From Strigamia acuminata (taxonomy: Eukaryota), in the NCBI GenBank assembly GCA_949358305.1, contig OX442314.1, forward strand, positions 30,256,001-30,320,000: 64,000 bases of DNA. Direction: 5' to 3'. Below are positions 5,297 to 46,569 of the stretch, in pieces. The notes beneath the pieces are model-generated. The model ran no database searches. It was not told the origin of the DNA and was given only the letters and a program-made list of their open reading frames with translations. Numbering within the stretch: position 1 is the stretch's first letter; each line of letters starts with the position of its first letter. A program made the translations under genes and the position numbers.

Positions 5297-6079
5297 TTAA
5301 AATGCTTTTTCTCCTGTATGGGTTAAAAAATGTTTTCTTACATCCCCATTTCGATTACTAAAATAATCACACAATTGGCACTTGAATGGTTTTTCTCCTG
5401 TGTGGGTTAATAAATGACTCTTTAAATTTCCTCTTACACTGCAGGAATAATTACACAAATGGCACTTGAATGGTTTTTCTCCTGTATGGGTCAATAGATG
5501 TCTTCTTAAAGTCCTACTTTGAACACTGGAATAATCACACAAATGGCACTTGAATGGTTTATTTCCAGTGTGGGTTAAAAGATGTGTTTTTAAGGTCCCA
5601 TTTTGAGCCGAACAATAATCACACAAATGGCACTTGAATGGTTTTTCTCCTGTGTGGGTTAATAAGTGACTGTTTAAATGCCCACTTTGATTGCAAGAAT
5701 AATCACACAAATGGCACTTGAATGGTCTTTCTCTAGTATGGGTTAATAAATGTGTTTTTAAGGTCCCATTTTGAGTGCAAGAATAATCACACAAATGGCA
5801 CTTGAATGGTTTTTCTCCTGTGTGGGTTAGTAGATGTCTTCTTAAATGCCCACTATGAACCGCACAATAATCACACAAATGGCACTTGAATGATTTTTCT
5901 CCAGTGTGAATTCGCATGTGGACAGTCATGCAAAATTTAAGTCGAAATGAAAGTGAACACATTTGACATTTGAAAGGCTTTTCACCAGTGTGTTTAAGCA
6001 TGTGCTGTTGCAATAAGTACACGTATGAACACGAATAATCACACAGATTACAATTGTAATCCTCACGTGTTCTCTTCAT
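5297..6079 (-). CDS. Tandem C2H2 zinc-finger protein (ZF-A), 9 fingers, 260 aa, no effector domain
   Basis: Nine CxxC-x12-HxxxH units with TGEKPF linkers. The ATG of MKRTRED at 6079 is chosen by comparison with the paralogs. A splice acceptor (TTCATTTCAG) at ~6131 indicates a 5'UTR intron. Confidence 0.9.
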   Translation of the reverse strand: MKRTREDYNCNLCDYSCSYVYLLQQHMLKHTGEKPFKCQMCSLSFRLKFCMTVHMRIHTGEKSFKCHLCDYCAVHSGHLRRHLLTHTGEKPFKCHLCDYSCTQNGTLKTHLLTHTRERPFKCHLCDYSCNQSGHLNSHLLTHTGEKPFKCHLCDYCSAQNGTLKTHLLTHTGNKPFKCHLCDYSSVQSRTLRRHLLTHTGEKPFKCHLCNYSCSVRGNLKSHLLTHTGEKPFKCQLCDYFSNRNGDVRKHFLTHTGEKAF

Positions 6080-7081
6080 TTTGTTTACTTCAACGACAAT
6101 GAAATGAAATGACAATGAAATGAACGTAGTCTGAAATGAAAAAAATAAGAATAAAATAATAATAATTAAGTTCGAAAACGATTAACTTAATTAGACACAC
6201 TTTAAAAAATATTGGTTTGTACAAACTCTGAACAGAAAAAACGCCGTATGGAAAGGTGGGAAGGTCGGGGCATCGCCGCTAATGGTTCGAATTCAGTTCG
6301 GCGAGTTAGGCCTAACGTTCGATGCACGATTGTGCCGAACTTTATAAACCGAGAAAAAAATCTCGTAACACCCAAAAGAATGTGATTTATCTATTCTCCT
6401 ATCTTTACCTTAATCTGCTTACACTTTGGAACCTTTCAAACGTCATAAACATGCATTTAATCGAGGATGTATGAAAAAGTGCGATATAACAAAACACAAT
6501 AAGAAAGATCAAACGAAGGTTGCCGTAGAAACTATAAGTGCATAATAGCGCCGACTAGTGACATTATTAGAACTAAACACAATACAACAAAGACACAAAC
6601 ACTACAAATTGAATGCACATTGCAAATGGTTTAAATTAATTGAAAAAATATAAAACCAAACCTAAAATAAGTCAGTTTTCAATCAATTTTTATTTCATGA
6701 ATCAAATGTCATTTATTTTCACGTTTGTTTATTCGTGAAACGAAATTGAAATTTCTAGTTTTAGAACGAGCAATTATATCGAAGCATTGCAGTGAAGCGA
6801 GGATTATTTTTATTAGCATTGAAATAAAATTTCAAAGCTTAAATTAAAGCTTGTAAAACGAGCAATTTCCAACGTTTAAGCTAAACCATTTAAGCGGATT
6901 AAAAAGAATTACCACGGAAGGAACGGTTGCTAGATAACATTTGCACACTCGTTTTTTTGCCTCCACACATTTTAGATCATAGGCGGGTCCACCAAACAGG
7001 TACCCGACCTAGAGAGACTTCGCTGTATATTCGAATTTCTAATTATTCAACTATCATGTGTGATGACACGTTTATAAGTAC

Positions 7082-8040
7082 TGTGGTGATCTCAAAATAT
7101 TCACCAACTTAGAAGATTAAATTAATTATCTTCTAATTAATTTGACTGTGGCACACGCCAAGTCAGATCATGTGACCGAGGGGAGAAATCCTCTCTAGGC
7201 ACATATCACCCCAGGTTGTCCGGGGTGAAAACGGTTATTAGCCGTTATGGTGCAATATGGTGTAATAACCACTAGTTGCACCCATTTGAGCTAAGTGCGC
7301 AGGTTTTCTGCGCAATATTGAAGCGTGCTGGGCTCGCGTCTTGGCTCAAATCGGGACTCTGAAAAATACAACAACAACCTCAACATCACTGCGATATCTG
7401 CTCCGACAATACGTATTGATAGAGGACCGTTGTAACTCAGTTTCACCTGCTATCTTTGTGCCACCCAAAGCACAAAGCCAGCAATTCTGCTTGAATTAGC
7501 CGTAGCTAATTCCAGCAAACGAGAAGAAGAAGTTTCCCGACGATCGTGAACCATCGCCGTCGCTGCCGCGCGAACGACAGCCACCGCCATCGTACGAGAG
7601 CCGGACGCCTACAGCCGTCAACCACCGCCGCCGAGCCGTCGCACGAGCCGTAGAAGGAGCCCACGAGAACCATCGTCTTCGACCATCGTTCGTGAGTTCA
7701 GCAAACGAAGACAATTCGCCTTCGCCTAACAACTGTGTGTTGTTTAAGCGCCATTTTAGCGCTTTGTAGCTTGCAACAGTCGTTGCAAGCCCTTCCATTG
7801 TTCCCGCTCATTTCATTTCGCGACTTGTCGCCATTGTGATATTTTTAACTAGTCATTGTAATTTAAACGAATAAATACATATTTGTGATTTTTATTAATA
7901 AAACTGTCTTTTTATTTCTTTTCCTTAAACTTAACCCCTAGATAATTTAAGGCCGCCGATTGTAAGTCTTTTATAGCATTCACCTGCGGTTTCTGCTTAA
8001 TTTATTAGAAATTAAGTGGATAAAAACCCGGATCGCAGCA
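7082..8040 (+). repeat. 5' LTR (959 bp)
   Basis: Starts TGTGGTGATC and ends GATCGCAGCA; repeated at 18460-19418; AATAAA signals at ~7870 and ~7897. Confidence 0.97.
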
Positions 8041-8042
8041 CG

Positions 8043-8060
8043 TGGGGGCCTGTCCGGGAT
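8043..8060 (+). promoter_or_regulatory. Primer-binding site, tRNA-Pro-like
   Basis: TGGGGGCCTGTCCGGGAT lies 2 nt after the LTR; it matches the canonical Pro PBS TGGGGGCTCGTCCGGGAT at 16/18 positions. Confidence 0.8.
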
Positions 8061-8154
8061 AGTCATTGTATAAATTTTGATAGTTTAAAATTTACCCGCC
8101 ATTTTTATCTTGCTTATCTTTCTTCTCTATCCTTTCTTTGTCTTCATTTGAAAA

Positions 8155-11100
8155 ATGGCGACTCCAGGCGAAAAGAGACCGAGAGGCAGACCAGCGAAGA
8201 GACGAGTGGCGATCGATCTACCAGCCGTGGATCAAGAAGTGACTGAGTCACAAGAACTGTTTGAAACTATGGATCAAACAGCTAACTGTAACTCGGCACA
8301 GTTAATCGTGAATGAATTCACGCAAGCGTTGGAGCGACAACAGCCATCCCCGCCAAGCGGCCAGTTGGACTTAAATAATCCAACTGGAAGTGGCCGTTCC
8401 AAGTCGCAAAATGATGATTTGAATTTACGAATTCAATCATCAAGTGCAGAGCACTCGCTGAATTCATCACCAGTCCAAGGTGCAGCACAGCAAGATTTAG
8501 AGAACTCCAACATGGAAGTTTCTCATTCTCCAGTGCGTGTTACCATGATGGACGCACTCCGTGAGCAAGCTAGGCTCGAGGGAGTAAAAGTCACTAGCGA
8601 AATGACTGTGGAACAAATCCACAAAGCTATGGTTCGCAAACAAAGTCAAAAAGACGTTGAAATCGTCAGAACAAGCTTGCAAGCAGAGTTCGAGCGAATG
8701 CGTGCAGAAATGCATCAGCAAAATGCCGAACTAAAACAACAACGTGCGAATGACCATGTTAAGTTGTTACAATTAGAGCAGGAAAAAGCTTCCTGGCTAA
8801 TTACTGACGAAGAGCAACAACAAAGGCTCGAGCAACTAAATCAAGCCCAAAAAGATTTAGAAATTGCTAATGAAAATTTGAGATTGGCCAACGCAAATTT
8901 GCGAGAAGCCAACACAAATTTAATGACTGCCGAACTAACCGCCCCAGTTCGAGCGAGGGAAGTAATTCCCTCCACTTCTCGAAATTACGAGAATCATGCT
9001 GCAGAGCAAGCAGCAAGAGCTAAGAGATTAGCACAACGAGAAAACGAAGTATTTCTCGCTCGACAGCAGTCTGTAATTGATGCTGGTCAAGCCGCCAAAA
9101 GTCAAAGTACTGCAGAGCAGTTATTACGTGCCGACTTAGCTGCGCAAGCTCGTGAAAACGAAATTCTTCGCGCAGACCTGTTGACGGTACAAGAGAACTT
9201 TGCAGTAGTCGTACAAAAAGTACAAGACGTTTGCGGCGAAGATAATTTTGCAAAGCCAGCCCCAGTTTTGCAAAAAGGTGCTTCCAAATCACCTGAGTTG
9301 ATTGATTTAACATCAGCTAAACCAAAAGTCAGTCGACAATCAAGTTGGACTGACAGCGATGACTCACGCAGTAGTCGTGGAAGCCGTAATAGTCATCACA
9401 GTCGCAAAAAGAGAAAGCGACAACCAGACCCGACCGAATATCATTCCCCAAAAGTTCCGCAAAATTCGGATAGATTCTTTAGCAATAGTGACCAATTAAT
9501 TGGATTGCTGGCGAAAAAGAATAAAGAACGTGAGAAACCACACGATCGTGGACGGTCACACGATAATCCGCGAGAAGGCTCACCAAAACGAGATTGTCAC
9601 AACGACATCCGTGATGGGCCGAGATACCGTGGAAATCCGCCAGGTGGTGACCCACCAGGTGGAGACAGTTCAGATGGACATGGAGGTGGCCACTCACGTG
9701 ACCACAATTCGAATGGCAATCAAAATGGAAGGGGACCACCAAATGGAGACCGTCGTCCGCCAGATGGCGACGATCCTCCGGACCCTGATCCGCCGCCAAA
9801 TCCGAATCATGAATCTGCGTCAGATACAGATTCCTCACGTCCCAGTGTGAGAGGGCGATCTCGTCACAGAACACGTAGTAGAACTCAAAGACCCGATTTT
9901 TACACGAAAGATGAGATTGACCAGTTGTTGAGGCAAAATGCTCAACAACAGCGAAAAAGCAGAAGGGATAAAATTATTTTGCAAAAAATAAGTGAATTTA
10001 CTTCTGATAAATGGACTCATCAAACAACAGATGAAAAGTTCATTAGATGGGATCGAGTTATCCCACATGCCTATAATGGAAATTGGCAAGCAGGGTCAAA
10101 CCTCTTGCTGGAAATATTCGAACTAGGCAAAGTTCACAGTTTTAGCTGTGAAGGTGCATTGGCCCATCTAGTACCAAGAATACTAGTTGGCGGTGTCAAG
10201 GAGTGGTTTCGCAGGAAAGACTTCACGAAGTGGGATGACTTCGTTAAACAATTTATGTTTAAATTTGGTGAATCGAGCGAAGACATCAAGACGCTCTGGA
10301 GATGTCTTAAGCAACGAAAAGGCGAAAGCTTACATTCGTACATGCTAAGAGCAGAGAATCTGCTTGGCAGAATGCCACATGCTGTTACTGATGCAACAGC
10401 AGATGATCAGTTTAGAGCTGGCCTCACAGAATATAGTAAAAATATTCTGATGATGTCGGACGCTCCCGACCCGGGGAAATTCTCCGAGTTAAACGAGTTC
10501 ATGGAAGTCAATCAATTGCGCATTGACGAAAAGTACAAAGCTTATCTTACAGAAGCCGAAAGGTCAGCGTACTTAAAGCGAGAGAAAAGACTCGCTGAGC
10601 AAAACAATGAAACCTTTAATGGTTTGAAATTGTTGCAGCCACCTAGTTACGAAGACTTTCTAGACGAAGTGGATGAGAAGAGTTCGAAAAAAGAATCTTC
10701 CAAAAAGGACGTCAAAAATCCTCATTCAGTCCCTAAGTTACACGCAAATATAACTGGAGCTGAAACTCCGTCGTCTGAAGCTGAAGAAGCTGAAGAGGAG
10801 GAGGAAACAGGAGACGAGACGATGGCTTTATTGGCCAAAGCAGCGGCGTTGTTAGCAAAAAATAACCCCGTTGCGGGCAAATGGAAGCCAAGGATGAAAC
10901 CAAAAAATGTTTCATTTGACGCATCAAAGGTGAATACCGAAAGGAATTCAAAGTCACCTGCGGTGTCGCCAGAGCGCCGGTCTGACGCTCGTTCTCGTTC
11001 TGCCTCGCCAGCAGCAACGAAAAAGAAATCGCCTGCCACTGATCCATGCAATTTATGCAAAAAATTAGGGCATTGGCAAAAAGACTGCCCTTCCTCTAAA

Positions 11101-11178
11101 AAGGACAAACCAGTGTCAACAGCTGAGTTTGAAAAAGCAGTCAAGATCATAACTGACATGTTTCGAAAAAACTTGTAG
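8155..11178 (+). CDS. gag: Gag polyprotein, unusually long (1007 aa)
   Basis: First ORF after the PBS. It has a long coiled-coil-like region, a capsid-type segment (WFRRKDFTKWDDFVKQFMFKF...LKQRKGESLHSY) and a CCHC knuckle CNLCKKLGHWQKDC. Confidence 0.93.
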   Translation: MATPGEKRPRGRPAKRRVAIDLPAVDQEVTESQELFETMDQTANCNSAQLIVNEFTQALERQQPSPPSGQLDLNNPTGSGRSKSQNDDLNLRIQSSSAEHSLNSSPVQGAAQQDLENSNMEVSHSPVRVTMMDALREQARLEGVKVTSEMTVEQIHKAMVRKQSQKDVEIVRTSLQAEFERMRAEMHQQNAELKQQRANDHVKLLQLEQEKASWLITDEEQQQRLEQLNQAQKDLEIANENLRLANANLREANTNLMTAELTAPVRAREVIPSTSRNYENHAAEQAARAKRLAQRENEVFLARQQSVIDAGQAAKSQSTAEQLLRADLAAQARENEILRADLLTVQENFAVVVQKVQDVCGEDNFAKPAPVLQKGASKSPELIDLTSAKPKVSRQSSWTDSDDSRSSRGSRNSHHSRKKRKRQPDPTEYHSPKVPQNSDRFFSNSDQLIGLLAKKNKEREKPHDRGRSHDNPREGSPKRDCHNDIRDGPRYRGNPPGGDPPGGDSSDGHGGGHSRDHNSNGNQNGRGPPNGDRRPPDGDDPPDPDPPPNPNHESASDTDSSRPSVRGRSRHRTRSRTQRPDFYTKDEIDQLLRQNAQQQRKSRRDKIILQKISEFTSDKWTHQTTDEKFIRWDRVIPHAYNGNWQAGSNLLLEIFELGKVHSFSCEGALAHLVPRILVGGVKEWFRRKDFTKWDDFVKQFMFKFGESSEDIKTLWRCLKQRKGESLHSYMLRAENLLGRMPHAVTDATADDQFRAGLTEYSKNILMMSDAPDPGKFSELNEFMEVNQLRIDEKYKAYLTEAERSAYLKREKRLAEQNNETFNGLKLLQPPSYEDFLDEVDEKSSKKESSKKDVKNPHSVPKLHANITGAETPSSEAEEAEEEEETGDETMALLAKAAALLAKNNPVAGKWKPRMKPKNVSFDASKVNTERNSKSPAVSPERRSDARSRSASPAATKKKSPATDPCNLCKKLGHWQKDCPSSKKDKPVSTAEFEKAVKIITDMFRKNL

Positions 11179-11212
11179 ACGCAGATCCATCAGGTCTAGT
11201 GGACGCTGCGTC
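11166..11212 (+). promoter_or_regulatory. Putative -1 programmed ribosomal frameshift signal
   Basis: Slippery heptamer A AAA AAC (11166-11172) in the gag frame. The pol frame is -1 and open from this point. A GACGCAG...CTGCGTC stem starts ~5 nt downstream. Confidence 0.8.
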
Positions 11213-14200
11213 ACCTCCGAAATCGGAATCAGAGAATGAAAATCTGAAGATAATGGAAGATGTTGGAGAAGTTATTGATGAATTAATTCGTCAAACAGAA
11301 CTAAAAGAAAAAGGATCTCTTGATGTAAAAAAGGAGATTGTCGGCGAAACCCCGACTGAAGAAGACACTTCCAATATTCAAGATAAAGTCGAAGTTAAAG
11401 ACGATAGACCAAGCTCAGTTCCAGAGACACCTGGAATTGAGGAGTGCATTAAGTTATTTGCAGCTACAACTCTTGATACCAATGAGTTATTAGATGAATT
11501 GCCTTTGGAGCCTCCAATTACAGTTCCTCATAAATTGCGCAAGTTTGAGTGCAAAGTGGCTGGAATACCAAACAGCCAAGACCTTCCGACGTTAAAGTTA
11601 GAAACGTTAAAAGGTGTAATAACCGGAATGTTGGACTCAGGAGCAAATAAAAGCTTCCTAGCCACTTCAGTTATTAATCAATTAGGTCTAGAAAAATATC
11701 TACGACCTATCGGACCTGGTGTCAGAGTTACGACGGCAAGTGAAGAAGTCACTCCAGATGGAACCATCCATCTTTCATTTCGATGGACACATGGCACGTT
11801 ACGTCATCCGTTCATCGTAATACCAAATAAGTATCCAATGGTACTATTGGGTTGCGATTTTATGAATAAATTAAAAATCCAACCTAATCCACAGACGATG
11901 TCTTGGAATTTCACGCAACCTATGGATGCAGATTTACCCTACATTCCACAAGCGTTGCTGGATCGTTATTTGGAGAAAATAGAGGAACCCGATTCCTCAT
12001 TTATGACCTTTGCAAAAGCTTACGCTGCAAGTGTAACTCAAGGCAAAATTGATGAAGAGAATTTCATCCAAAAGTTAGTCGAAGAAGCTAACTTAAATTT
12101 GGAGCAATCCAAATTATTAGAAAAGATGTTATCCAAACATAAAAGGATTATTTCTAAAGATCCAGGTAAAACACACCTGGTTAAGCACAAAATTGAGCTT
12201 GACACGGAGAAACCCATCCGTGTCCCCTTTAAGAGCATAAAACCTCAAAAAAGGGAAATAATCAGACAACTTTGTCAAGACATGATTGACAAAGGCGTAG
12301 TCGTCAAAGCTGAAGGCGATTACGGAATGAGGCCAGTCCTAGTCATGCGACCAGGAAACGACCCACGCTTGTGCATTGATTTTCGCCCCATCAATACACA
12401 TACTAAGTACAACCCACCTCAAATGCCAACAATTGAGGAAATTCTGCGAGAAATCGGAGAATTCGAGTGGGTCAGTACTATAGATCTGACCAAGGGATAT
12501 TGGCAGATAGAATTGCGCCCTGAAGACAGAGAAAAAACTGCCTTCTGGAGCCCAATGGGAAGACTAATGTTTTTAGTCATGCCTTTCGGATTAGTAAACG
12601 CACCAACTACCTTCCAAGAATTAATGGAAAAAGTTTTGGGTGACGTTTACAGAAAATTTGCATGGGCATATTTGGATGACATAATTGTTGTATCCAAATC
12701 GTTCGAAGAACACATTAAACATTTAGATATAGTGTTTAAAAAATTGGCAGAAGCTAATTTACATGCGCACCCTGGCAAGACGCATCTCTGTAGAAAGGAA
12801 TTAATTTTCCTAGGCTACAAAGTAGGAGTAGAAGGACTTGCAGTAGACCCTAAAAAAGTCGCTGCAATTACGCAATTTCCTGCTCCTACCAATCTTAAGG
12901 AATTACAAAGATTTCTAGGCATGGTGAATTTCTTTCACCGCCTAATCAAGAATTTGGCCACAGTGGCAGAACCACTAAGGCCACTCTTGAAGAAAGATGC
13001 GGAGTTCGATTGGGAACTGCATCATCAAGCAGCATTCGACGCAATAAAAGACCTGCTTACGAATGCTGAAACAATGAAGATGCCTGACTTGTACATGCCA
13101 TTTATTGTTCATACTGACGCCAGTAAACAAGGGTTGGGTGCAGCCCTTACACAAAAGAAAATTGTGGATGGCCAAGAAGTCGAAATGCCATGCGTGTATG
13201 CAAGCAGAAGCTTGCAACCCGCTGAAAAGAATTATACTGTGACAGAATTAGAATGTCTCGCAGTAGTATGGGGATTACGCAAATTTCGCCCATACTTAGA
13301 GTACACTACATTCACTGTACAAACGGATCACCAAGCACTTAAGTGGTTGATGTCGTTATCTGACCCGTCGGGCAGATTAGCTCGTTGGCAAATGGAGCTA
13401 ATGGCGTATTCGTTCGAAATACAATACGTCAAAGGTCCGCTGAATGTAATAGCAGACGCATTGTCACGTGCACCTGTCAGCGCACCTGACGAACCAGAAG
13501 ACGATGGCGATAATGATGATTTATTATCATATTGTCCATCTCCTTGCCGAAGTTGGCAAATGGGAAAATTGAACGAATTACCCAAGTCAATAATAGTTAA
13601 TGACGACGATCAAGCATTAATTAATTTTTGTAATAACATGCATGATCCGTCAGGAACCCCTGACGTCGAATTAAGAGCTATGATGGCTAAAAAATTCGAG
13701 CTGCCAACAACAAATGTTTTAATTAAAGCATTTGCAGCTAAAATTGCGAAGCAATTAGAATGTGATCCTCCAACGAGAGATGACATTATTGCAGCGCAAA
13801 AAGCAGACGAATTTTGCCAACATATTCGCAATTACTTGCTAAACAAGCAATATCCAAGTTACATAGTAACTCGTCTTCAAAGAAGAAACTTTGAAAGACA
13901 CGCGAGTACTTATCTCATTGAAGAAGATATGCTACTCCATTATCATCCTACCTCCACCGATGAATTGGGAGAGGATGGTAGGGCACTTAAAGTTGTTGTG
14001 CCAAGAAAATTGATTTATAAAATCATTTGGTTGATGCACGGACATCCACTGTCCGGCCACCCAGGCATTGCGAGGACAATGTACCGAACTCGAAGAGTTT
14101 ATACCTGGAAAGGTATGAAACGTGATATTACACGTTTTATTCAACATTGTCAAGGATGTCAGGCATGTAAGCCGAGATCAAAGACCGAAATTGAAGACGC

Positions 14201-15425
14201 TCAAATTGGACCATTTGGACCATTTGACTGCCTCAGTGTGGATTTGTCTGGTCCCAAACCAAGAACCAGAAAAAACAATACCCACATTTGCGTCATCGTA
14301 GATGTCGCTACACATTGGCCCGAATTATTTCCAATGTGTAATCCAACGGCAATAAAAGTTGCCAACACAATTTATCACTTATCAATGACTTTCGGATTTC
14401 CGAGACAAATCATAAGTGATAATGGACCACAATTTCGATCACAGGTCTATAAAGAATTTTGCAAAAAATTCGACATGTCGCGAACACCGACATCGATTTA
14501 TCATCCACAAAGCAATCCTGTGGAGAGAACCAATCGAGATATTAAATATTTAGTTTCGATTTATTTAGATATTCATGACCAATGGGATGAGTATCTACGC
14601 GAATTTGCATTCAGTTTGAGAACAACTGTAACAAGAGGCAGAGATTATTCTCCTGCTTTCTTAAATTTTTTCCGAGAATTAAGAATTCCTTGGGATCCAA
14701 GAATTCCGGAAGGAATTTTAGTCATTGATCCAAAAAATCCGCATTTATATGTTCAGAAATTAGAAACAATAATTGCAGAGACGTATCAGCATATGATGTC
14801 TCACGTCTTAGATTTGAGACGCCGTGTCGAAGCTGAAAAATCAGATAAGAAATTCGACAACTTCAGACAAAATGATTTAGTCTGGCGAGAGTCTCATATT
14901 CTCTCAAATGCCGCTAAAGGAATAGCAGCAGGCATTTCACCGAAAAGGAATGGGCCTTATGTAATTATCAAAAGGTTACAAGGAGGCGCCTTTCAACTTC
15001 GACGGCTGAGTGATAATAAAATTTATCCAGCTGTTCACGGCACTGAATTAATGCCGTACTTTCCCGTTTTCAACCAAGAAATTTGGCTGGAAGGGGAGGA
15101 AGTGGGTCAAAAAACAAAGAATATTGTTAATACCTTGGATGATGCTAAATTATCCAAAATTCCTGTCGAAAACACGGAATCGAGTAAAAAATCGAAACTC
15201 AAAAATAACGAAGTCGATGAAATAAACCAGCGACTTGAAAATGTTTCTCTTGATGAAAATCTAGAAAAGGAAATGTTTTTAGAAAAAGAGAAAATTTCAA
15301 ACAATGAAGTATATAACTCATCTGACATTGGAGACGATGCTGATGACAATCTAAACAAGTTGGATTGTACTTCGCGAAAGTCAAAGTACAACTTGAGATC
15401 TCGCGTTCCGCGAGCCAAGACATAG
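11166..15425 (+). CDS. pol: Pol polyprotein (protease, RT, RNase H, integrase), probably expressed as a Gag-Pol frameshift fusion
   Basis: Motifs: LDSGA protease; LCIDFR, MPFGLVNAP and YLDD of RT; TDAS...ELECLAV...TDH of RNase H; HHCC (HGHPLSGH...CQGC); DDE (VDLSG, SDNG, VERTN); GPY. The frame is uninterrupted and the track start is a GTG. Confidence 0.97.
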   Translation, partial: KKLVDADPSGLVDAASPPKSESENENLKIMEDVGEVIDELIRQTELKEKGSLDVKKEIVGETPTEEDTSNIQDKVEVKDDRPSSVPETPGIEECIKLFAATTLDTNELLDELPLEPPITVPHKLRKFECKVAGIPNSQDLPTLKLETLKGVITGMLDSGANKSFLATSVINQLGLEKYLRPIGPGVRVTTASEEVTPDGTIHLSFRWTHGTLRHPFIVIPNKYPMVLLGCDFMNKLKIQPNPQTMSWNFTQPMDADLPYIPQALLDRYLEKIEEPDSSFMTFAKAYAASVTQGKIDEENFIQKLVEEANLNLEQSKLLEKMLSKHKRIISKDPGKTHLVKHKIELDTEKPIRVPFKSIKPQKREIIRQLCQDMIDKGVVVKAEGDYGMRPVLVMRPGNDPRLCIDFRPINTHTKYNPPQMPTIEEILREIGEFEWVSTIDLTKGYWQIELRPEDREKTAFWSPMGRLMFLVMPFGLVNAPTTFQELMEKVLGDVYRKFAWAYLDDIIVVSKSFEEHIKHLDIVFKKLAEANLHAHPGKTHLCRKELIFLGYKVGVEGLAVDPKKVAAITQFPAPTNLKELQRFLGMVNFFHRLIKNLATVAEPLRPLLKKDAEFDWELHHQAAFDAIKDLLTNAETMKMPDLYMPFIVHTDASKQGLGAALTQKKIVDGQEVEMPCVYASRSLQPAEKNYTVTELECLAVVWGLRKFRPYLEYTTFTVQTDHQALKWLMSLSDPSGRLARWQMELMAYSFEIQYVKGPLNVIADALSRAPVSAPDEPEDDGDNDDLLSYCPSPCRSWQMGKLNELPKSIIVNDDDQALINFCNNMHDPSGTPDVELRAMMAKKFELPTTNVLIKAFAAKIAKQLECDPPTRDDIIAAQKADEFCQHIRNYLLNKQYPSYIVTRLQRRNFERHASTYLIEEDMLLHYHPTSTDELGEDGRALKVVVPRKLIYKIIWLMHGHPLSGHPGIARTMYRTRRVYTWKGMKRDITRFIQHCQGCQACKPRSKTEIEDAQIGPFGPFDCLSVDLSGPKPRTRKNNTHICVIVDVATHWPELFPMCNPTAIKVANTIYHLSMTFGFPRQIISDNGPQFRSQVYKEFCKKFDMSRTPTSIYHPQSNPVERTNRDIKYLVSIYLDIHDQWDEYLREFAFSLRTTVTRGRDYSPAFLNFFRELRIPWDPRIPEGILVIDPKNPHLYVQKLETIIAETYQHMMSHVLDLRRRVEAEKSDKKFDNFRQNDLVWRESHILSNAAKGIAAGISPKRNGPYVIIKRLQGGAFQLRRLSDNKIYPAVHGTELMPYFPVFNQEIWLEGEEVGQKTKNIVNTLDDAKLSKIPVENTESSKKSKLKNNEVDEINQRLENVSLDENLEKEMFLEKEKISNNEVYNSSDIGDDADDNLNKLDCTSRKSKYNLRSRVPRAKT

Positions 15426-15469
15426 TGTTGTCTTTCACCTTTTGGGTTTACCCAAAAGATCCGAGAAAG

Positions 15470-15663
15470 CAATCTCGTGACGTCATTCGTAGTACCCACT
15501 CGAATGACAACGTTAATCATACGTTATAATTAGTGACGTCACAAAGCGTCTCTAATCCAAGTTCGTGTTTGCAATCAACGAACTTAGTCACTTTTTCAAA
15601 AGTTTCGAGAGTGTATGCATCGCATCGCCTACGTTACGACCCGAATAGTTCGACAACCTGATC
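15470..15663 (+). promoter_or_regulatory. Putative internal promoter and non-coding first exon for ORF3
   Basis: Two TGACGTCA palindromes (15478-15485, 15534-15541), an Inr-like TTAGT at 15584 and a perfect donor GTAAGT at 15664. Confidence 0.5.
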
Positions 15664-15767
15664 GTAAGTAATTTTTCTGTATGAAAAATTTGATAAAACA
15701 TAAGATTTATGTATTATTTCTCTTTCAAGACGAAAGAATTTCCGAAATTACCGGAAAACGAAAGAGA

Positions 15768-18407
15768 ATGGACGAGGAAGCGATCCAACTCCAGGCGGAC
15801 GGAGAAATGCCCATGGAAGGGGCAAATGAAGACGTTCAATTGACGCTTCAACAACGGGTAAATTATTAGAATAAATTTTTACCAAGTGTTTAAGTCAGAA
15901 AAATTGAGTAATTTCACTTTTCCTGACTTCAAACACAAGCCGCTAAAAAATAAAAATGGCGGCTATAAAAGTCACGTGCTTCAAGCATGTGCGAAGGGAG
16001 TTGCCATGACAACCAACATCCCTTAGTGACTCACAGCCACAAGCGCTAAGCTTAAAAAATATTTCAAATAAGAAATTATTTGTTTATTTTTAAATAAACT
16101 AATTTATTTATTTTTCTTCGAATATAGATCGAGAGGGATCGAGAAACACCATTCGCGCTTCCCGATCACGTGCCGACTCAGCACCCGCTGATTTTTCGAG
16201 CGGCATTGCCCGAAAAAATCAGAAGACTGAAGACGGCAAACAATACCTGGTGGAAGTTGCGCCACGACTTCAGCAGATCAGCGCTGCAAGGATTTGGTGC
16301 AAAAGGAAGATTCATCGAGCGCCTTCACGTGGACGGTGTCGATGAAATCGAGTGGACGCTCGACGAGAGCCCCCCAGGACCGCTTGCAGCAGAGTTGCTG
16401 CACAACCAGTGGCCAGTGACGCCACGAGAGCGTCACGAGCGCAGAAGAGCGCTAAAGAGTACCGGAATTAATTACGGTGCTCTAACCCAATTGAGGAAGA
16501 ACCTCAAGACGACACAACGCGAAGTCGTTAAACGGTATCGCAAATCCGTTCGTGACGGGAACCCACAACTTCCCGTCACACAAACCGAGCTCCACCAGTT
16601 GGCGCTCGCCGGGTGTTTTAACGATTTTCCGGGATTTTTCCCGTCCAAAGCACTCCGAGCTGCCGCGGTGCAGCTTCGCGTCGACGAAAATCGACAACTG
16701 GCTCGAGAACACGAGGCAGAGGAGCAAGCGCGTTGCGCTCTCCCTTTTTATCAAGAAGATGGAATTCCGGCCCCAGCGGCCATCAATCCTCCGCCGCAAG
16801 ACGAGGATTTGAGGGTGGGGCAACTCCCTCCGCCGGTTCCAGTCCGACCGATGTTCCGCGAATCAAGCCGCGATCGAGAGGAACGTCAGAAGCGATCACG
16901 CCCATATTCGACTGACGCGCAGCCATCACGCCCGCAGTCGCGACGAGGACGGACACCAGAGTCGTTTGGCTCGTCGTCTTCGCTGAGTTTTGAATCGGAC
17001 TCCACAATTAAGTCCGCCCGAAGTAGCCGAACCGCCTCCACGTTCAAAGTGGACAACTCGGCTACTCCATACGCCATGAGACGTGTTGTCGGTGATATTT
17101 CTCCCGACTGTAGCGTGCCAGTACCTGGACATGCTAGCCGCTTGCCCGAACAAGGATATGTTTCCCGCTTGCCGGCTGGAGTTAGCAACCTGCAACTCCG
17201 GCCATTTTTTAGTGAGTCATTCGGCCCACAATGGACCTGCTACGAGCAGCAACCCATTAGAGCACAGCAGGAAGTGCTCCAGAAGCTGGACGCATACCAA
17301 AGCGCCCAGATCGCCGAGTCGCAGAAGGACTGGCAGAGACTAGCTGAAAGGCTAGAAGTCTCCGACATCAATACCATTGATGATCCCCGTCTGATGGATT
17401 TTCAGCGTCAGCTAATTCCGGGGATGACTAGGGTGTTGTACCCTGGTGTTCTTCCTTCGCCAGGACAGGCGTTAGCGGCCATTACGTACCTTTGGACCGC
17501 GCCGATGGGCCTGTCGGAGAAGAAAGTCGAGCTGTGGTACCACCTCAGGCTCGACCCGCCTACGATCTTAGCCGAGCTAATAAAGCAAGTCGTAGCAAAC
17601 GGTGAGACCGAAGAAGAGGCCGCCGTTCGGTTGCGAACCGAGTGGTCCTTTGCGAAGGCCACGGCGCGAATGACCGGAAGACCACCGCTTCCAGTTACAA
17701 GCGCCACAGCAGCTGCGTCACTGGCTGTTTTCCAGTCGGCCCAAGAGGGCGCTGGATGTTCATTTTGGCCAGAGAACGCCGGAAGTTCTCAAACTCCAGC
17801 CGGAGTTCAACGGGTAGTCGAAACCCGTCAGCTCCCCGGTGTGGGTCGAGCACCGGGACGAGGCGTCACACCCTCGTCAACCTCCGCACCCGCGTTGGTT
17901 TTCTTGGGCCCGCAGTGCCATTTTGACGATGCCACGACGGAAGACTCACGTCCGCCGCCGCCGCCAGCCAAGCCGGAGACGAAGGTCAAGCCGCTGAAAA
18001 AAGAGTCGGCTTTCAAGACCCTGATGCGCCTGTATCCGCACTTCTATTTGACGCCGGATACGCGAACACTGCTTAGCAACAACCACAAGTTGTCGAGGCA
18101 GGTGTTTATGTGGCTCGAGGACCACATCCGGGTGTTAAGCCCACCATCAGTGCTCCACGATCGACTCCTGAGAGCACGATTGGCGCCAGAGGATCCCATA
18201 GAGTTTGCGGCGCTAGGATTTTTCAACCGAGCGAACTCGGCGAGAATCATCCAGGTTTGGCTTCATGTCAACCCTGGAATGGTCTCCGGACCAAACGCAG
18301 GTCGCGACCTGTGTACGGTTAACGAGCGGTCCAACCCGAGGGACGACACCACGGATATGATGCGCCCGTTGACGCCTGAGCGAACTCAGACCATGGACGA
18401 ATCATAA
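15768..18407 (+). CDS. Spliced third gene of the retrotransposon (ORF3), ~789 aa, unknown function, not env-like; coding exons 15768-15857 and 16128-18407
   Basis: The ATG at 15768 reads MDEEAIQ...LQQR to a donor GTAAAT at 15858. A branch-like CTAAT (~16099), pyrimidine tract and acceptor TAG at 16127 join in phase 0 to the 745-aa ORF, which itself lacks an early ATG. No signal peptide or transmembrane segment is visible. Confidence 0.8.
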
Positions 18408-18446
18408 ATTGGTTCGTTCATTTTCTCTCCATGTAAGATTCGTCTT

Positions 18447-18459
18447 AAATGGGGGGATG
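18447..18459 (+). promoter_or_regulatory. Polypurine tract
   Basis: AAATGGGGGGATG immediately before the 3' LTR. Confidence 0.8.
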
Positions 18460-19418
18460 TGTGGTGATCTCAAAATATTCACCAACTTAGAAGATTAAAT
18501 TAATTATCTTCTAATTAATTTGACTGTGGCACACGCCAAGTCAGATCATGTGACCGAGGGGAGAAATCCTCTCTAGGCACATATCACCCCAGGTTGTCCG
18601 GGGTGAAAACGGTTATTAGCCGTTATGGTGCAATATGGTGTAATAACCACTAGTTGCACCCATTTGAGCTAAGTGCGCAGGTTTTCTGCGCAATATTGAA
18701 GCGTGCTGGGCTCGCGTCTTGGCTCAAATCGGGACTCTGAAAAATACAACAACAACCTCAACATCACTGCGATATCTGCTCCGACAATACGTATTGATAG
18801 AGGACCGTTGTAACTCAGTTTCACCTGCTATCTTTGTGCCACCCAAAGCACAAAGCCAGCAATTCTGCTTGAATTAGCCGTAGCTAATTCCAGCAAACGA
18901 GAAGAAGAAGTTTCCCGACGATCGTGAACCATCGCCGTCGCTGCCGCGCGAACGACAGCCACCGCCATCGTACGAGAGCCGGACGCCTACAGCCGTCAAC
19001 CACCGCCGCCGAGCCGTCGCACGAGCCGTAGAAGGAGCCCACGAGAACCATCGTCTTCGACCATCGTTCGTGAGTTCAGCAAACGAAGACAATTCGCCTT
19101 CGCCTAACAACTGTGTGTTGTTTAAGCGCCATTTTAGCGCTTTGTAGCTTGCAACAGTCGTTGCAAGCCCTTCCATTGTTCCCGCTCATTTCATTTCGCG
19201 ACTTGTCGCCATTGTGATATTTTTAACTAGTCATTGTAATTTAAACGAATAAATACATATTTGTGATTTTTATTAATAAAACTGTCTTTTTATTTCTTTT
19301 CCTTAAACTTAACCCCTAGATAATTTAAGGCCGCCGATTGTAAGTCTTTTATAGCATTCACCTGCGGTTTCTGCTTAATTTATTAGAAATTAAGTGGATA
19401 AAAACCCGGATCGCAGCA
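18460..19418 (+). repeat. 3' LTR (959 bp)
   Basis: Same length and, by eye, same sequence as 7082-8040; the track shows an identical 100-aa antisense ORF in both LTRs. Confidence 0.97.
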
Positions 19419-19774
19419 GTACGTAAAGGATATCTACATTGATACGAGTGTATCACCAGGCAATTAATGTAAGCTGTTACATCTATCTCAGTCTTTTTAG
19501 CTCAATAGTTCGCCCGTGATGTGCAAGCACTGGGCAAAAACGTAACGCACAACTAAAATCAATAAATCTACAATTAAGATAATACGCAAATAGAACCCGA
19601 AAATAAACTTAACACAAGAATAAAATTTTTTTAAATAAAAATTTACAAAGACAAAAAAATTGAAGATTGAACATTTTTATTTCCAATTTCAAATATTTTA
19701 CATCGGCATTAAACTGACAATACTCACTATTAAACTACAGTAGGAAATTAAATTAATATATACAAAATGTGCAT

Positions 19775-23703: not shown

Positions 23704-24486
23704 TTAAAATGCTTTTTTTCCTGTATGGGTTAAAAGATGTCTTCTTACATCCCCATTTCGATGACTAGAATAATCACACAATTGGCACTTGAATGGTTTT
23801 TCTCCTGTGTGGGTTAATAGATGTACTTTTAAATGCCCACTACGAGTCGAACAATAATCACACAAATGGCACTTGAATGGTCTTTCTCCAGTATGGGTTA
23901 ATAAATGTCTTCTTAAATGCCCACTATGAACCGCACAATAATCACACAAATGGCACTTGAATGGTTTTTCTCCTGTGTGGGTTAATAAATGACTCTTTAA
24001 ACTCCCTCTTACACTGCAGGAATAATCACACAAATGGCACTTGAATGGTCTTTCTCCAGTATGGGTTAATAAGTGACTGTTTAAATTCCCATTTTGAGTG
24101 CAAGAATAATCACACAAATGGCACTTGAATGGTTTTTCTCCTGTGTGGGTTAATAGGTGACTCTTTAAACTCCCTCTTACACTGCAGGAATAATCACATA
24201 AATGGCACTTGTATGGTTTTTCTCCTGAATGGGTTAATAGATGTATTTTTAAATGTTCACTACGACTCGAACAATAAGCACACAAATGGCACTTGAATGG
24301 TTTTTCTCCAGTGTGAATTTGCATGTGGACAGTCATGCAAGTTTTAAGTCGAAATGAAAGTGAACACGTTTGACATTTGAAAGGCTTTTCACCAGTGTGT
24401 TTAAGCATGTGCTGTTGCAATAAGTACACGTATGTACACGAATAATCACACAGATTGCATTTGTAATCCTCACGTGTTCTCTTCAT
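23704..24486 (-). CDS. Tandem C2H2 zinc-finger protein (ZF-B), 9 fingers, 260 aa
   Basis: Nine C2H2 units; paralog of ZF-A with shared flanks (block ~23440-26087 vs ~5020-6915). Confidence 0.9.
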
Positions 24487-24738
24487 TTTTTTTTACTTCA
24501 ACGACAATGACACTGAAATGACACTGAAATGAACGTAGTCTGAAATGAAAAGAATAAGAATTAAATAATAATAAATTAAGCTTGAAAAGCGGAAAACAGC
24601 AGATTAACGACTAGTGATTGCCATCAGATGTTTACTTTCTCATTTTTAAAACCTTAATTTCATTGTTAGCTGTCAGTCATTCTCTCCCCAGCATTGTTAT
24701 GCACGTGCGCTCTTTTTGTCAGCCATCTTTATTTTTCC

Positions 24739-25474: not shown

Positions 25475-26603
25475 ATCGGGCATCACCGAATTCGGTTAGG
25501 CGAGTTAGGCCTAACGTTCGACGCACGCGCCGAATTTTATAAACAGAAAAAATAATCCAATAATACCAAAAAAAAAATGTGATTTATCTATTCTCCTATT
25601 TTAACCTTAATGTGCTTACACTTTGGAACCTTTCAGACGTAAAAAACATGAACATCGATGATGAACGAAAAAGTGCGATACGATAATGCAAACGAGGTTG
25701 CCATAGAAACTATAAGTGCATAATAGCGCCGACTAGTGACATTATTAGAACTAAACACAATACAACAAAGACACACACACTAAAAATCGAATGCAAATGG
25801 TTTAATTTAATTGAAAAAATATAAAACCAAACCTAAAAAAAAGTCAGTTTTCAAACAATATTTATTTCATGAATCAAATGTCATTTATTTTCACGTTTGT
25901 TTATTCGTGAACACGAAATTGAAATTTCTAGTTTTAGAACAAGCAATTATTTCGAAGCATTGCAGTGAAGCAAGGATTATTTTTATTAACTTTGAAATAA
26001 AGTTTAAAAGATTAACATAAAGCTTGTAAAACGAGCAATTTCCAACGTTTAAGCTAAACCATTTGAGCGGATTAAAAAGGATTACCACTTGACAACAGGT
26101 CGTGTCGTCCGAAATCACTAATTCTTGTGATTTCGTCTAGGCAACTTGGTGGAGCGTTACAACATCCATGCCCAGCGTGACGATTGGATTCTAGCGACTA
26201 GCGTTATTATGTACCAGTTTCTATGGCAACCGCCATTTGCGTCATCATATTGTATATTGGTGTACCGGTATCGCACTTTTCCGTTCATCCTCGATTAAAT
26301 GCATGTTTATTACGTTTGAAAGGTTCCAAAGTGTCAGCAGATTAAGGTAAAGATAGGAGATTAGATAAATCACATTTGTTTGGGTATTATGGGATTTTTT
26401 TCCGGTTTATAAAGTTCGGCGCAATCGTGCATCGAACATTAGGCCTAACTCGCCGAACTGAATTCGAACCGTTGGCGGCGGTGTCCCGACCTTCCCACAC
26501 AGCGTTTTATCTGTTCAGAATATACACATACCAATATATTTAAAGTGCGTCCAATTAAGTTTTATTTTATTCTTATTTTTTTCATTTCAGACAAACAAAC
26601 AAA

Positions 26604-27539
26604 ATGAAGAGAACACGTGAGGATTACGAATGCAATCTGTGTGATTATTCGTGTTCAAACGTGTACTTATTGCAACAGCACATGCTTAAACACACTGGTG
26701 AAAAGCCTTTCAAATGCCAAATGTGTTCACTTTCATTTCGACTTAAAACTTGCATGACTGTCCACATGCGAATTCACACTGGAGAAAAACCTTTCAAGTG
26801 CCATTTGTGCGATTATTCTTGCAAGCAAATTGGACATTTAAACAGTCACCTATTAACCCACACAGGAGAAAAACCATTCAAGTGCCATTTGTGTGATTAT
26901 TCTTGCACTCAAAATGGGACTTTAAAAACACATTTATTAACTCATACTGGAGAAAGACCATTCAAGTGCCATTTGTGTGACTATTGTTCGACTCGTAGTG
27001 GGCATTTAAAAGACCATCTATTAACCCACACAGGAGAAAAACCATTCAAGTGCCATTTGTGTGATTATTCTTCGGCTCGTAGTGGGCATTTAAAAGACCA
27101 CCTATTGACCCACACAAGAGAAAAACCATTCAAGTGCCATTTGTGTGATTATTCCTGCAGCGTAAGAGGGAATTTAAAAAGTCATTTATTAACCCATACA
27201 GGAGAAAAACCATTCAAGTGCCATTTGTGTGATTATTCTTCGGCTCGTAGTGGGCATTTAAAAGACCACCTATTGACCCACACAAGAGAAAAACCATTCA
27301 AGTGCCATTTGTGTGATTATTCCTGCAGCGTAAGAGAGAATTTAAAAAGTCATTTATTAACCCATACAGGAGAAAAACCATTCAAGTGCCATTTGTGTGA
27401 TTATTCTTGCAATCAAAATGGGAATTTAAAAGCCCATCTATTAACCCATACAGGAGAAAAACCGTTCAAGTGTCATTTGTGTGGTTTTTCTTGCAATCAC
27501 AGTGGGAATTTAAGAAAACATCTTTTAACCCATACATGA
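26604..27539 (+). CDS. Tandem C2H2 zinc-finger protein (ZF-C), 11 fingers, 311 aa
   Basis: Eleven C2H2 units; inverted paralog; acceptor TTCATTTCAG at 26590 just before the ATG. Confidence 0.9.
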   Translation: MKRTREDYECNLCDYSCSNVYLLQQHMLKHTGEKPFKCQMCSLSFRLKTCMTVHMRIHTGEKPFKCHLCDYSCKQIGHLNSHLLTHTGEKPFKCHLCDYSCTQNGTLKTHLLTHTGERPFKCHLCDYCSTRSGHLKDHLLTHTGEKPFKCHLCDYSSARSGHLKDHLLTHTREKPFKCHLCDYSCSVRGNLKSHLLTHTGEKPFKCHLCDYSSARSGHLKDHLLTHTREKPFKCHLCDYSCSVRENLKSHLLTHTGEKPFKCHLCDYSCNQNGNLKAHLLTHTGEKPFKCHLCGFSCNHSGNLRKHLLTHT

Positions 27540-45750: not shown

Positions 45751-46569
45751 TTAAACCTTCTTTCTAGACACAAATCCAGAATACACCCAATCCAGCTCCA
45801 CCGAACGGAACATCCGCTTAACAAAACCACTTTCAACGGGACAAACTTTCTTCCCATCCAACTGCAACACAAAAAACAACCCAACACCCCCATTACAATC
45901 CCTCAACACCATCCTCTGCACTTTTCCTTTCTCCTCATCCGACATAATCGACCAAAGATACTCAACGGCGCTTTCATTATTCATCGAAACAGCATAAACA
46001 AACACATTCAACTTCTTCGCAAAAGGAATATCAATTCCGCGCATTTTACGCCCAACCAAATCAGTCCAGAACTCATAAACCACACGAAAAAACTTCAGGG
46101 TCCTGGAATAAGGTCCCCAAAGCTCCCCCACCACGTCCACCACACAAAACGCACAAGCAATCTTAAACCTGATCGCCGGCTTCAATTTGGCCTCTCTGCA
46201 AAGCACTTGGGCCGTTTTGGTCCACTCGATCTTGCCATATTGAGTCCACTGCACGTATTTGTTTATTATCATGTCGACGTTCTCAAGGCCGCGGAGGGAG
46301 CAATGGCCATGCAGGAAGTCGAACCATTGGTGCAATTCGTTCCCCAAATGCCCGACGTATTTTTTTATCCAGGCTTTGAGGATTTCGGCACTTTTTAACG
46401 TTTCCACTTGTTCGGAAATTGCGGTTTTGATTTTGTTCCAGTTGTGGGTCGATGCAGTGTCGAACCAATCCATTGGTTCGCAGACGTAAGCGTTGGTCTT
46501 CCAGTAGTGAACTGCCATTTTGACGCAGAGAATGTGCTGAAGACTGGGCAATTCCAAAACACAAGACAT
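45751..46569 (-). CDS. Uncharacterized intronless protein (272 aa)
   Basis: Long ATG-started, non-repetitive ORF with helical, Trp-rich composition, more GC-rich than its flanks; TATA-like run ~90 bp upstream. Confidence 0.65.
   Translation of the reverse strand: MSCVLELPSLQHILCVKMAVHYWKTNAYVCEPMDWFDTASTHNWNKIKTAISEQVETLKSAEILKAWIKKYVGHLGNELHQWFDFLHGHCSLRGLENVDMIINKYVQWTQYGKIEWTKTAQVLCREAKLKPAIRFKIACAFCVVDVVGELWGPYSRTLKFFRVVYEFWTDLVGRKMRGIDIPFAKKLNVFVYAVSMNNESAVEYLWSIMSDEEKGKVQRMVLRDCNGGVGLFFVLQLDGKKVCPVESGFVKRMFRSVELDWVYSGFVSRKKV

What the first reader, a model, noticed from the sequence alone, without database searches (positions are those of the whole stretch)
15768..18407. Gypsy retrotransposon carries a spliced, non-env third gene
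Seen: between pol and the PPT lies an intact ~760-codon exon with no early ATG. It becomes a complete ~789-aa protein when joined in phase 0 to a 30-codon exon (15768-15857) through a canonical GT-AG intron (15858-16127). The protein has an acidic N-terminus, three putatively folded blocks separated by Pro/Ser/Arg-rich linkers, and no signal peptide or TM segment. It is visibly more GC-rich than gag/pol and the host. Known: the usual third ORF of arthropod Gypsy elements is a membrane Env, and retrotransposition tends to purge sense-strand introns. Inference: this is an undescribed accessory gene (for example anti-silencing, RNA export or transactivation) maintained by regulated intron retention in the genomic RNA.
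Basis: partly seen in the sequence, partly recalled or inferred. Interest (0 to 1): 0.9.

Follow-up and report, generated by a model that had tools for sequence, protein, structure and literature searches.

The report
Intron-bearing orphan gene in Gypsy retrotransposon
A recently inserted, intact Gypsy jumping gene carries, where an envelope gene would sit, a long extra gene for a membrane-anchor-free protein with no detectable relatives; it is likely spliced through two predicted introns and is predicted to help the element's own unspliced RNA leave the nucleus, but neither step has been tested.

Summary
Observation confirmed. A 12.3-kb Ty3/gypsy element (identical 959-nt LTRs, 4-bp TSD) has a 759-codon open frame between pol and the PPT. 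Its first in-frame Met is residue 242, it has no signal or TM segment, and GC3s is 0.58 against 0.36 and 0.32 for gag and pol. The proposed intron has a good branch point and acceptor, but no RNA data were available, so splicing is unproven.

New here: (1) a second candidate intron (15664-15729) and an upstream in-frame ATG would give 818 aa with a KRKR motif; (2) the 486 nt covering a CRE pair, that intron and the donor match a deep contig with no difference in a multi-copy family; (3) the whole element RNA, ORF3 included, is unusually hairpin-rich.

No homologue or fold was found. It is not Env. Best guess: a CERV/Rev-like nuclear export factor (0.35); next, a Tas-like activator from an internal promoter (0.25). 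Non-env ORF3s, spliced accessory genes and internal promoters all have precedents, so this is a new variant of a known kind with an orphan protein.

The parts
7078..7081 (.). Target-site duplication, left copy (4 bp; right copy 19419-19422)
7082..8040 (+). 5' LTR, 959 nt, TG..CA, 0 differences from the 3' LTR; Inr-like TCAGTT at 7437, AATAAA at 7870 and 7897, donor-like sites at 7692 and 7962
   Evidence: motif roles inferred from recalled consensus
8043..8060 (+). Primer-binding site, resembling the complement of a tRNA-Pro 3' end (assignment recalled; not found in the supplement tables of PMC13524379)
8155..11178 (+). gag, 1007 aa, Retrotrans_gag (E 2.5e-7) and a CCHC knuckle (E 5e-4 to 9e-4, just under the curated cut-off); no ATG in 7260-8154
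11157..15425 (+). pol, 1422 codons, PR-RT-RNaseH-IN, overlapping the gag end by 22 nt; closest solved structure Ty3 Pol; relatives listed at 46% identity or less
15437..15922 (+). Stretch matched with 0 differences by one 486-nt contig of depth 5964; spans the CRE pair, exon A, intron A, exon B and the donor of intron B
   Evidence: table 8; simulation
15478..15541 (.). Two perfect CRE palindromes TGACGTCA (15478, 15534): candidate internal promoter
   Evidence: 1 of 5000 dinucleotide shuffles held two
15615..15663 (+). Candidate exon A: in-frame ATG in a weak context, 16 codons + 1 nt
   Evidence: predicted only
15664..15729 (+).
   Evidence: donor rank 5 of 547, acceptor rank 4 of 802; -3 base is A, which is less usual
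15730..15857 (+). Exon B: open frame including a KRKR motif just before the strong-context ATG at 15768; acidic 30-codon segment
15858..16127 (+). Candidate intron B, 270 nt, phase 0, branch-like CTAAT at 16099; folds as an array of hairpins (z -6.8); holds YY1-, TATA-, E-box- and RFX X-box-like motifs
   Evidence: folding rank 6 of 37 element windows
16128..18407 (+). Exon C: main ORF3 exon, 759 codons, three predicted helical blocks, Arg/Ser/Pro-rich linkers, no TM, no homologue
18447..18459 (+). Polypurine tract
18460..19418 (+). 3' LTR; AATAAA at 19248 and 19275 would end the ORF3 mRNA

Best explanation
ORF3 is an intact, element-borne, non-envelope gene with no detectable relatives that is likely expressed from a spliced mRNA and is predicted to encode a soluble nuclear protein that would let the element's unspliced genomic RNA escape splicing and be exported, as CERV does for Cer1 and Rev for HIV. 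Steps: (1) shown: intact frame, no membrane features, canonical splice signals, intron-bearing form present at high depth in the family; (2) inferred: transcripts splice by default into exon B and exon C (from LTR donors 7692/7962 or from an internal start near 15585), giving 789 aa from ATG 15768 or 818 aa from ATG 15615; (3) inferred: basic clusters take the protein to the nucleus and its basic first helical block binds the hairpin-rich element RNA; (4) inferred: bound RNA is exported unspliced, serves as gag-pol mRNA and is packaged, so every new copy keeps both introns. I put 'real spliced non-env accessory gene' at about 0.75 and this particular function at 0.35.
For: Strong splice signals lie in an element that must export an unspliced RNA. 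Both candidate introns code for nothing, so an intron-less copy would keep gag, pol and ORF3; yet a contig of depth 5964 runs through intron A and 65 nt into intron B, and none of the 15 joints shown (of 32) removes either intron. gag and pol are 34% A against 24% in ORF3, a split that recalls Rev-dependent RNAs (recalled analogy). Arg-rich stretches at residues 99-111 and 247-259 and K[KR]x[KR] motifs at 135 and 255, plus KRKR upstream. Three predicted folded blocks with linkers parallel the three linker-separated domains of CERV (PMC10309623 section 9), whose mRNA is proposed to arise by default splicing of the genomic RNA (section 15). The element RNA is structured throughout: mean z -2.25 over 153 windows vs -0.43 over 257 host windows.
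Against: No RNA evidence was available for any junction. No sequence or fold likeness to any export factor was found, and the models are poor (pLDDT 40-41). CERV has a four-cysteine loop and shares its N-terminus with Gag; ORF3 has 7 scattered Cys and no similarity to Gag. Intron B is not uniquely structured (6 of 37 windows), folds about as well on the minus strand (z -5.6), and the splice sites are not paired more than the region as a whole, so no RRE-like element is shown. The CRE pair points to a separate promoter, which fits a transactivator better. Short basic motifs are common by chance in a protein with 10% Arg. Contigs drop rare variants and 17 joints were not shown. Many LTR elements export unspliced RNA with host factors alone (PMC10309623 section 15 cites Mason-Pfizer monkey virus).
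Confidence: 0.35

Rival explanations
1. Tas-like or anti-silencing regulator. ORF3 is its own transcription unit, started near 15585 by a CREB/ATF-responsive internal promoter; the acidic N-terminus acts as an activation domain and the protein switches on or de-represses the LTR.
For: Two perfect CREs about 50 and 107 nt before an Inr-like TTAGTC (1 of 5000 shuffles); spacer CpG o/e 1.96, reached by 13 of 375 windows; the stretch is invariant in the deep contig; exon B net charge -7; X-box-like motif in 0 of 5000 intron shuffles (motif picked after seeing it). Precedents: foamy virus Tas/Bet from an internal promoter (PMC13220597 passages), Oikopleura Tor env promoter in the pol-env spacer (PMC4402516 passages).
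Against: No recognisable DNA-binding domain. The CREs sit in predicted stems (pairing 0.96 and 0.62) in an RNA that is hairpin-rich throughout, so palindromic motifs may be by-products. The Inr-like site doubles as a possible acceptor (AG 15587, rank 15 of 802). It does not by itself explain why the introns survive reverse transcription.
Confidence: 0.25
2. Soluble accessory protein with a cytoplasmic or host-directed role (particle transport, suppression of small-RNA silencing, germline advantage), made from an env-style subgenomic mRNA spliced from the LTR.
For: Donor-like sites at 7692 and 7962 and an ATG-free leader (0 seen, 13.3 expected) would make ATG 15768 the first start of an LTR-to-15730 spliced mRNA. 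Family-specific non-env ORF3s are varied and described as usually spliced (PMC5408684 passages).
Against: The ATG-free leader is needed for gag anyway. No enzyme, TM or known domain was found. The basic clusters suggest the nucleus.
Confidence: 0.25
3. Recently captured or neutral cargo, a decayed env, or a gene that is not spliced as drawn (started at Met242 or cap-independently on the structured spacer).
For: Codon usage unlike gag and pol (RSCU r 0.02 and -0.05); only 3 of 6 listed ORF3 variants are synonymous vs 24 of 34 in gag-pol; ORF3 depth and junction data come from one study only.
Against: 759 open codons; the only ORF3 indel among the 12 shown (of 26) is in frame and none of the 6 substitutions is a stop; ORF3 shares the element's RNA-folding bias (mean z -1.69 vs 0.0 for host coding windows), which suggests long residence; no Env hallmarks remain; the best acceptor of the element opens this frame in phase with an ATG exon.
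Confidence: 0.15

Closest known systems
CERV of C. elegans Cer1 (PMC10309623; abstract and sections 9 and 15 read)
   Same: LTR retrotransposon accessory protein with no homologue outside its lineage, from a multi-exon spliced mRNA, three predicted domains joined by linkers; the genomic RNA keeps its splice sites.
   Different: CERV (517 aa) shares reading frame and N-terminus with gag and has a Cys loop and a G-protein-like domain. ORF3 lies after pol, its candidate introns are non-coding, it has no similarity to Gag, and its role is untested.
Non-env ORF3s of bdelloid rotifer LTR retrotransposons (PMC5408684; passages) and plant additional ORFs (PMC7264820; passages)
   Same: Family-specific extra gene between pol and the 3' LTR that is not a canonical env.
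   Different: Those have GDSL, DEDDy, coiled-coil or TM features, or are antisense. The passages seen report no internal introns ('intron' occurs 0 times in either main text). This ORF3 matches no Pfam family.
Errantivirus Env (F-type, gB-type; PMC13524379 passages) and mdg1-type sORF2 (PMC13486581 passages)
   Same: Position after pol (Env); an extra gene that lacks an early ATG and would need splicing (env splicing: PMC7264820, PMC4402516 passages).
   Different: No signal peptide, TM anchor, glycan load or Cys pattern; far larger than sORF2; predicted all-helical and soluble.
Foamy virus Tas/Bet (PMC13220597 passages) and Oikopleura Tor3b/4b internal promoter (PMC4402516 passages)
   Same: 3' gene that may have its own promoter between pol and the LTR; a small intron (301 bp in tas/bet) kept in the integrated DNA.
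   Different: The tas/bet intron is coding; Tor's gene is a membrane Env with no sign of splicing; no sequence likeness; the promoter here is only predicted.

Membership tests
Ty3/gypsy LTR retrotransposon | TG..CA LTRs, TSD, PBS and PPT | tested here: met
   959-nt identical LTRs, 4-bp TSD, PBS at 8043, PPT before 18460
Ty3/gypsy LTR retrotransposon | gag, then pol in the order PR-RT-RH-IN | tested here: met
   Pfam; best PDB match Ty3 Gag-Pol E 3.6e-105
Osvaldo lineage | Long LTRs and a tRNA-Lys PBS (PMC3286476 passages, Culex elements) | tested here: inconclusive
   LTR 959 nt, near the 997-2055 range; the PBS looks Pro-type by recall; no tree with named elements was built
Errantivirus/retroviral Env | Signal peptide and C-terminal TM anchor | tested here: not met
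   Maximum 19-residue hydropathy 1.01 in exon C and below 0 in exons A and B; SignalP/TMHMM not available
Errantivirus/retroviral Env | Sequence likeness to F or gB fusion proteins | tested here: not met
   No Pfam family to E 1, no PDB sequence to E 10, 0 hits among 1.84 billion representatives
Errantivirus/retroviral Env | Class I or III fusogen fold | tested here: inconclusive
   Models at pLDDT 40-41 are too poor to exclude a fold
sORF2/FAST-like fusogen | Small protein with a TM helix | tested here: not met
   759 or more codons, no TM
Rotifer-type GDSL or DEDDy ORF3 | Detectable GDSL or DEDDy domain | tested here: not met
   No Pfam or NCBIfam match, whole or by block; HHpred not available
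CERV-like export factor | Made from a spliced mRNA of the element | tested here: inconclusive
   Signals present; no RNA run to test them
CERV-like export factor | Shares frame and N-terminus with Gag; C4 cysteine loop | tested here: not met
   No similarity to Gag (best E 2.8); 7 scattered Cys. Weak phase-compatible donors exist in gag (8561, 9530, 9847), so a Gag-fused form is not excluded
CERV-like export factor | Nuclear, binds genomic RNA, required for its export | not testable with these tools
   Needs localisation, CLIP and knock-down
Tas-like transactivator | Own internal promoter | tested here: inconclusive
   CRE pair, CpG excess and invariance; no 5'-end data
Tas-like transactivator | Binds and activates the LTR | not testable with these tools
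   Needs reporter and chromatin assays

The most novel reading that the evidence does not exclude
A likely arthropod Gypsy lineage has independently become a 'complex' retroelement: a three-exon regulatory gene with true non-coding introns and its own CRE-driven promoter encodes a new-fold nuclear protein that toggles the element between spliced and unspliced RNA, so that introns survive every round of reverse transcription. It would be a third, unrelated solution to the Rev problem beside Rev/Rex and CERV.
Probability: 0.2. Interest if true: 0.85.

Novelty: new variant of a known kind. Interest (0 to 1): 0.55.

Why it matters
How LTR retrotransposons export intron-containing RNA, and whether animal retrotransposons encode their own regulators or counter-defences, is open outside a few cases (CERV, sORF2, Env). 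A young, apparently multi-copy family with an intact orphan gene and dispensable-looking introns makes this testable with RNA data and a knock-down. If it holds, it adds a new protein family and shows non-coding introns persisting in an actively retrotransposing element. If ORF3 is only another family-specific cargo gene, it joins a growing list: the scan's own notes hold several other orphan ORF3s.

Tried and rejected
Homologues of ORF3: none in 1.84 billion representatives, none among 7995 near-length and 7997 shorter candidates (longer proteins were not searched), none in PDB sequences, Pfam (by block only sub-threshold TssR_C and DUF3320 rows, 38), PHROGs, NCBIfam, viral contigs (32) or metagenome contigs (33). 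One GTDB row (L005, 36% over 45 residues of a Pro-rich linker, E 6e-4 among candidates) was rejected as chance. The ESM Atlas gave no answer, so language-model look-alikes are untested.

Folds: no Foldseek hit at E 0.001 or better; best VIA Z 6.2 (rmsd 1.6, 43 aligned) and 6.5 (rmsd 2.3, 68 aligned), generic helices. The first and third blocks were not folded alone, and a passing BEN-domain resemblance (recalled) got no support from Pfam.

RNA: no RNA holder listed. No genome is held, so copies could not be counted or aligned. Only 40 of 385 variant rows, 12 of 26 indel rows and 15 of 32 joints were visible, so no proper dN/dS could be computed.

Relatives of pol with flanks: none in viral contigs (39); four distant short metagenome loci (33-40%), not examined further. 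No look-alike windows in the scan.

An 'RRE in intron B' was suggested by z -6.8 and set aside as unproven once the whole element proved structured. Splice-site masking by hairpins was not supported. No Rfam family (two rows far below gathering score). ORF3 as a second gag was rejected. No complex was predicted, since no binding is claimed.

Full report
THE ELEMENT. Window 7082-19418 is a complete Ty3/gypsy retrotransposon: 959-nt TG..CA LTRs with 0 differences, a 4-bp target-site duplication, a PBS at 8043 and a PPT before 18460. gag (8155-11178) has Retrotrans_gag and a CCHC knuckle; pol (11157-15425) has PR-RT-RNaseH-IN, and its best solved relative is Ty3 Pol. The 120 RT/RH relatives listed are at most 46% identical, so the lineage is poorly sampled and I did not assign it to a named clade. 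The host is an animal, likely an arthropod; that is inferred from neighbouring genes and no call established it. No genome is held.

THE OBSERVATION. Confirmed as sequence. 16128-18407 is open for 759 codons (shuffle maximum 298 of 2000). Its first Met is residue 242, behind two out-of-frame ATGs, so it needs an upstream start. 15768-15857 is a 90-nt ATG exon that stops 3 codons past its donor if unspliced. The 270-nt interval is 30% GC, has CTAAT at 16099, and ends in the best-scoring of 802 AGs in the element; its donor ranks 15 of 547 (crude scores from recalled consensus). There is no hydrophobic segment, one sequon and 7 Cys. GC3s is 0.577 against 0.361 for gag, 0.316 for pol and 0.33-0.49 for six host ORFs; codon usage is uncorrelated with gag and pol and only weakly with four host ORFs (r 0.20) (replacing host values that had a strand slip). 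The source of the gene is therefore unexplained.

(a) A second candidate intron, 15664-15729 (66 nt, GTAAGT, 20% GC; donor rank 5, acceptor rank 4). The frame stays open upstream of ATG 15768 through a KRKR motif and, across this intron, to a weak-context ATG at 15615, for 818 aa in all. (b) Two perfect CRE palindromes (15478, 15534) and a CpG-rich spacer, a candidate internal promoter. (c) Donor-like sites in the LTR (7692, 7962) and an 895-nt ATG-free leader, an env-style route to the same exons. (d) Element-wide RNA structure: mean folding z is -2.54 in gag, -2.62 in pol, -3.09 in the spacer and -1.69 in ORF3, against -0.43 for 257 host windows and 0.0 for 36 host coding windows. Intron B (z -6.8) ranks only 6 of 37 windows. 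ORF3 sharing this bias suggests long residence in the element (inference).

OTHER COPIES. Two contig sets of one study hold the stretch; neither is on record as RNA, and the even depth of diverged pieces suggests DNA. Main contigs in X1 have depth about 6000-8800 against about 105-125 for diverged pieces, roughly 50-70 copies if those are single-copy (a rough inference, and the tool warns that depth is no copy number). ORF3 is covered in all its bins. Of the 40 of 385 variant rows shown, 24 of 34 in gag-pol are synonymous (p 2e-7) but only 3 of 6 in ORF3 (p 0.23); none is a stop. The one ORF3 indel among 12 of 26 shown is in frame. One 486-nt contig (15437-15922, depth 5964) has no difference from the window, where about 14 variant places are expected and the longest gap in 2000 uniform simulations was 444. 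This stretch was picked after seeing it, the null is crude and contigs drop rare variants, but it points to constraint on the promoter-like region, intron A and the donor. None of the 15 of 32 joints shown removes either intron.

THE PROTEIN. An orphan in every search run (one chance row in 81). Single-sequence AlphaFold gives three helical blocks at low confidence, and fold searches return only generic helices. The N-terminus is acidic, block 1 and the first linker are basic and Arg-rich, and it is not a second Gag.

HOW IT LIKELY WORKS. The puzzle is why non-coding introns persist, since an intron-less copy would keep all three genes. The most economical answer is that only unspliced RNA is exported and packaged and that the spliced product enforces this: transcripts splice by default to ORF3 mRNA, the protein enters the nucleus, binds the element RNA and diverts it to export. 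This is the logic reported for Cer1 CERV (PMC10309623, abstract and sections 9 and 15). Shown: anatomy and retention in the dominant form. Inferred: splicing, localisation, binding, export. Odds: export factor 0.35; Tas-like or anti-silencing factor from an internal promoter 0.25; other soluble accessory 0.25; neutral, decayed or unspliced 0.15.

COMPARISON AND NOVELTY. It is a Ty3/gypsy element, and ORF3 fails the Env and sORF2 tests. It may work like CERV or Tas but is a member of neither. Non-env ORF3s are known from rotifers (PMC5408684, passages) and plants (PMC7264820, passages); internal promoters from Oikopleura Tor (PMC4402516, passages) and foamy viruses (PMC13220597, passages). The surveys of metazoan and fly Gypsy elements that I saw deal with Env and sORF2 (PMC13524379, passages and supplement searches; PMC13486581, passages). 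PMC3286476 (passages) was used for Osvaldo features. Six searches of the open-access library (listings only, apart from the papers named) showed no intron-containing non-env ORF3 in an arthropod Gypsy element; subscription journals and TE databases were not searchable. Unchecked scan notes list other orphan ORF3s, which lowers surprise without bearing on this protein.

VERDICT. A real, intact orphan accessory gene with a well-formed but untested splice structure; new variant of a known kind; interest 0.55.

Noticed in passing
window 7082-19418: The whole element RNA folds far better than shuffles (54% of 153 windows below z -2 vs 9% of 257 host windows), coding regions included, on both strands (-2.5 plus, -2.0 minus in 26 windows). 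A search for 'genome-scale ordered RNA structure' with 'retrotransposon' listed 6 papers, none on this by title or abstract start.
   Followed up: partly
window 8155-9950: Gag has an N-terminal extension of about 600 residues before the capsid domain: an AT-hook/NLS-like PRGRP basic motif at the start (recalled motif), a coiled-coil-like stretch and a Gly/Pro/Asp/Arg-rich region; no Pfam match.
   Followed up: no
window 7260-8154: 895 nt without an ATG (13.3 expected; 0 of 2000 shuffles), placing the LTR start site downstream of 7257 and implying a long leader; donor-like sites flank the poly(A) signals, recalling U1-mediated poly(A) suppression in foamy viruses (PMC3694450, search listing only).
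   Followed up: partly
window 15950-16015: Cluster of YY1-, TATA-, E-box- and RFX X-box-like motifs inside intron B; YY1-like motifs also at 7749 and 8097. Possible enhancer, or a by-product of hairpins.
   Followed up: partly
window 11157-11178: gag and pol overlap by 22 nt with an A-run before the gag stop, suggesting a ribosomal frameshift.
   Followed up: no
window 5297-6181, 23704-24492, 26559-27539: Three near-identical single-exon C2H2 zinc-finger array genes (84-nt repeat) flank the insertion on both strands; such clusters could be TE repressors (speculation).
   Followed up: no
window 45751-46749 (-): A 332-codon ORF with no Pfam match, overlapped by a 218-codon frame on the other strand.
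   Followed up: no
window 15597/16284, 16903/17012, 18281/18422 (joints): Low-depth diverged contigs match ORF3 on both sides of unaligned segments, suggesting older, diverged copies that also carry ORF3.
   Followed up: no
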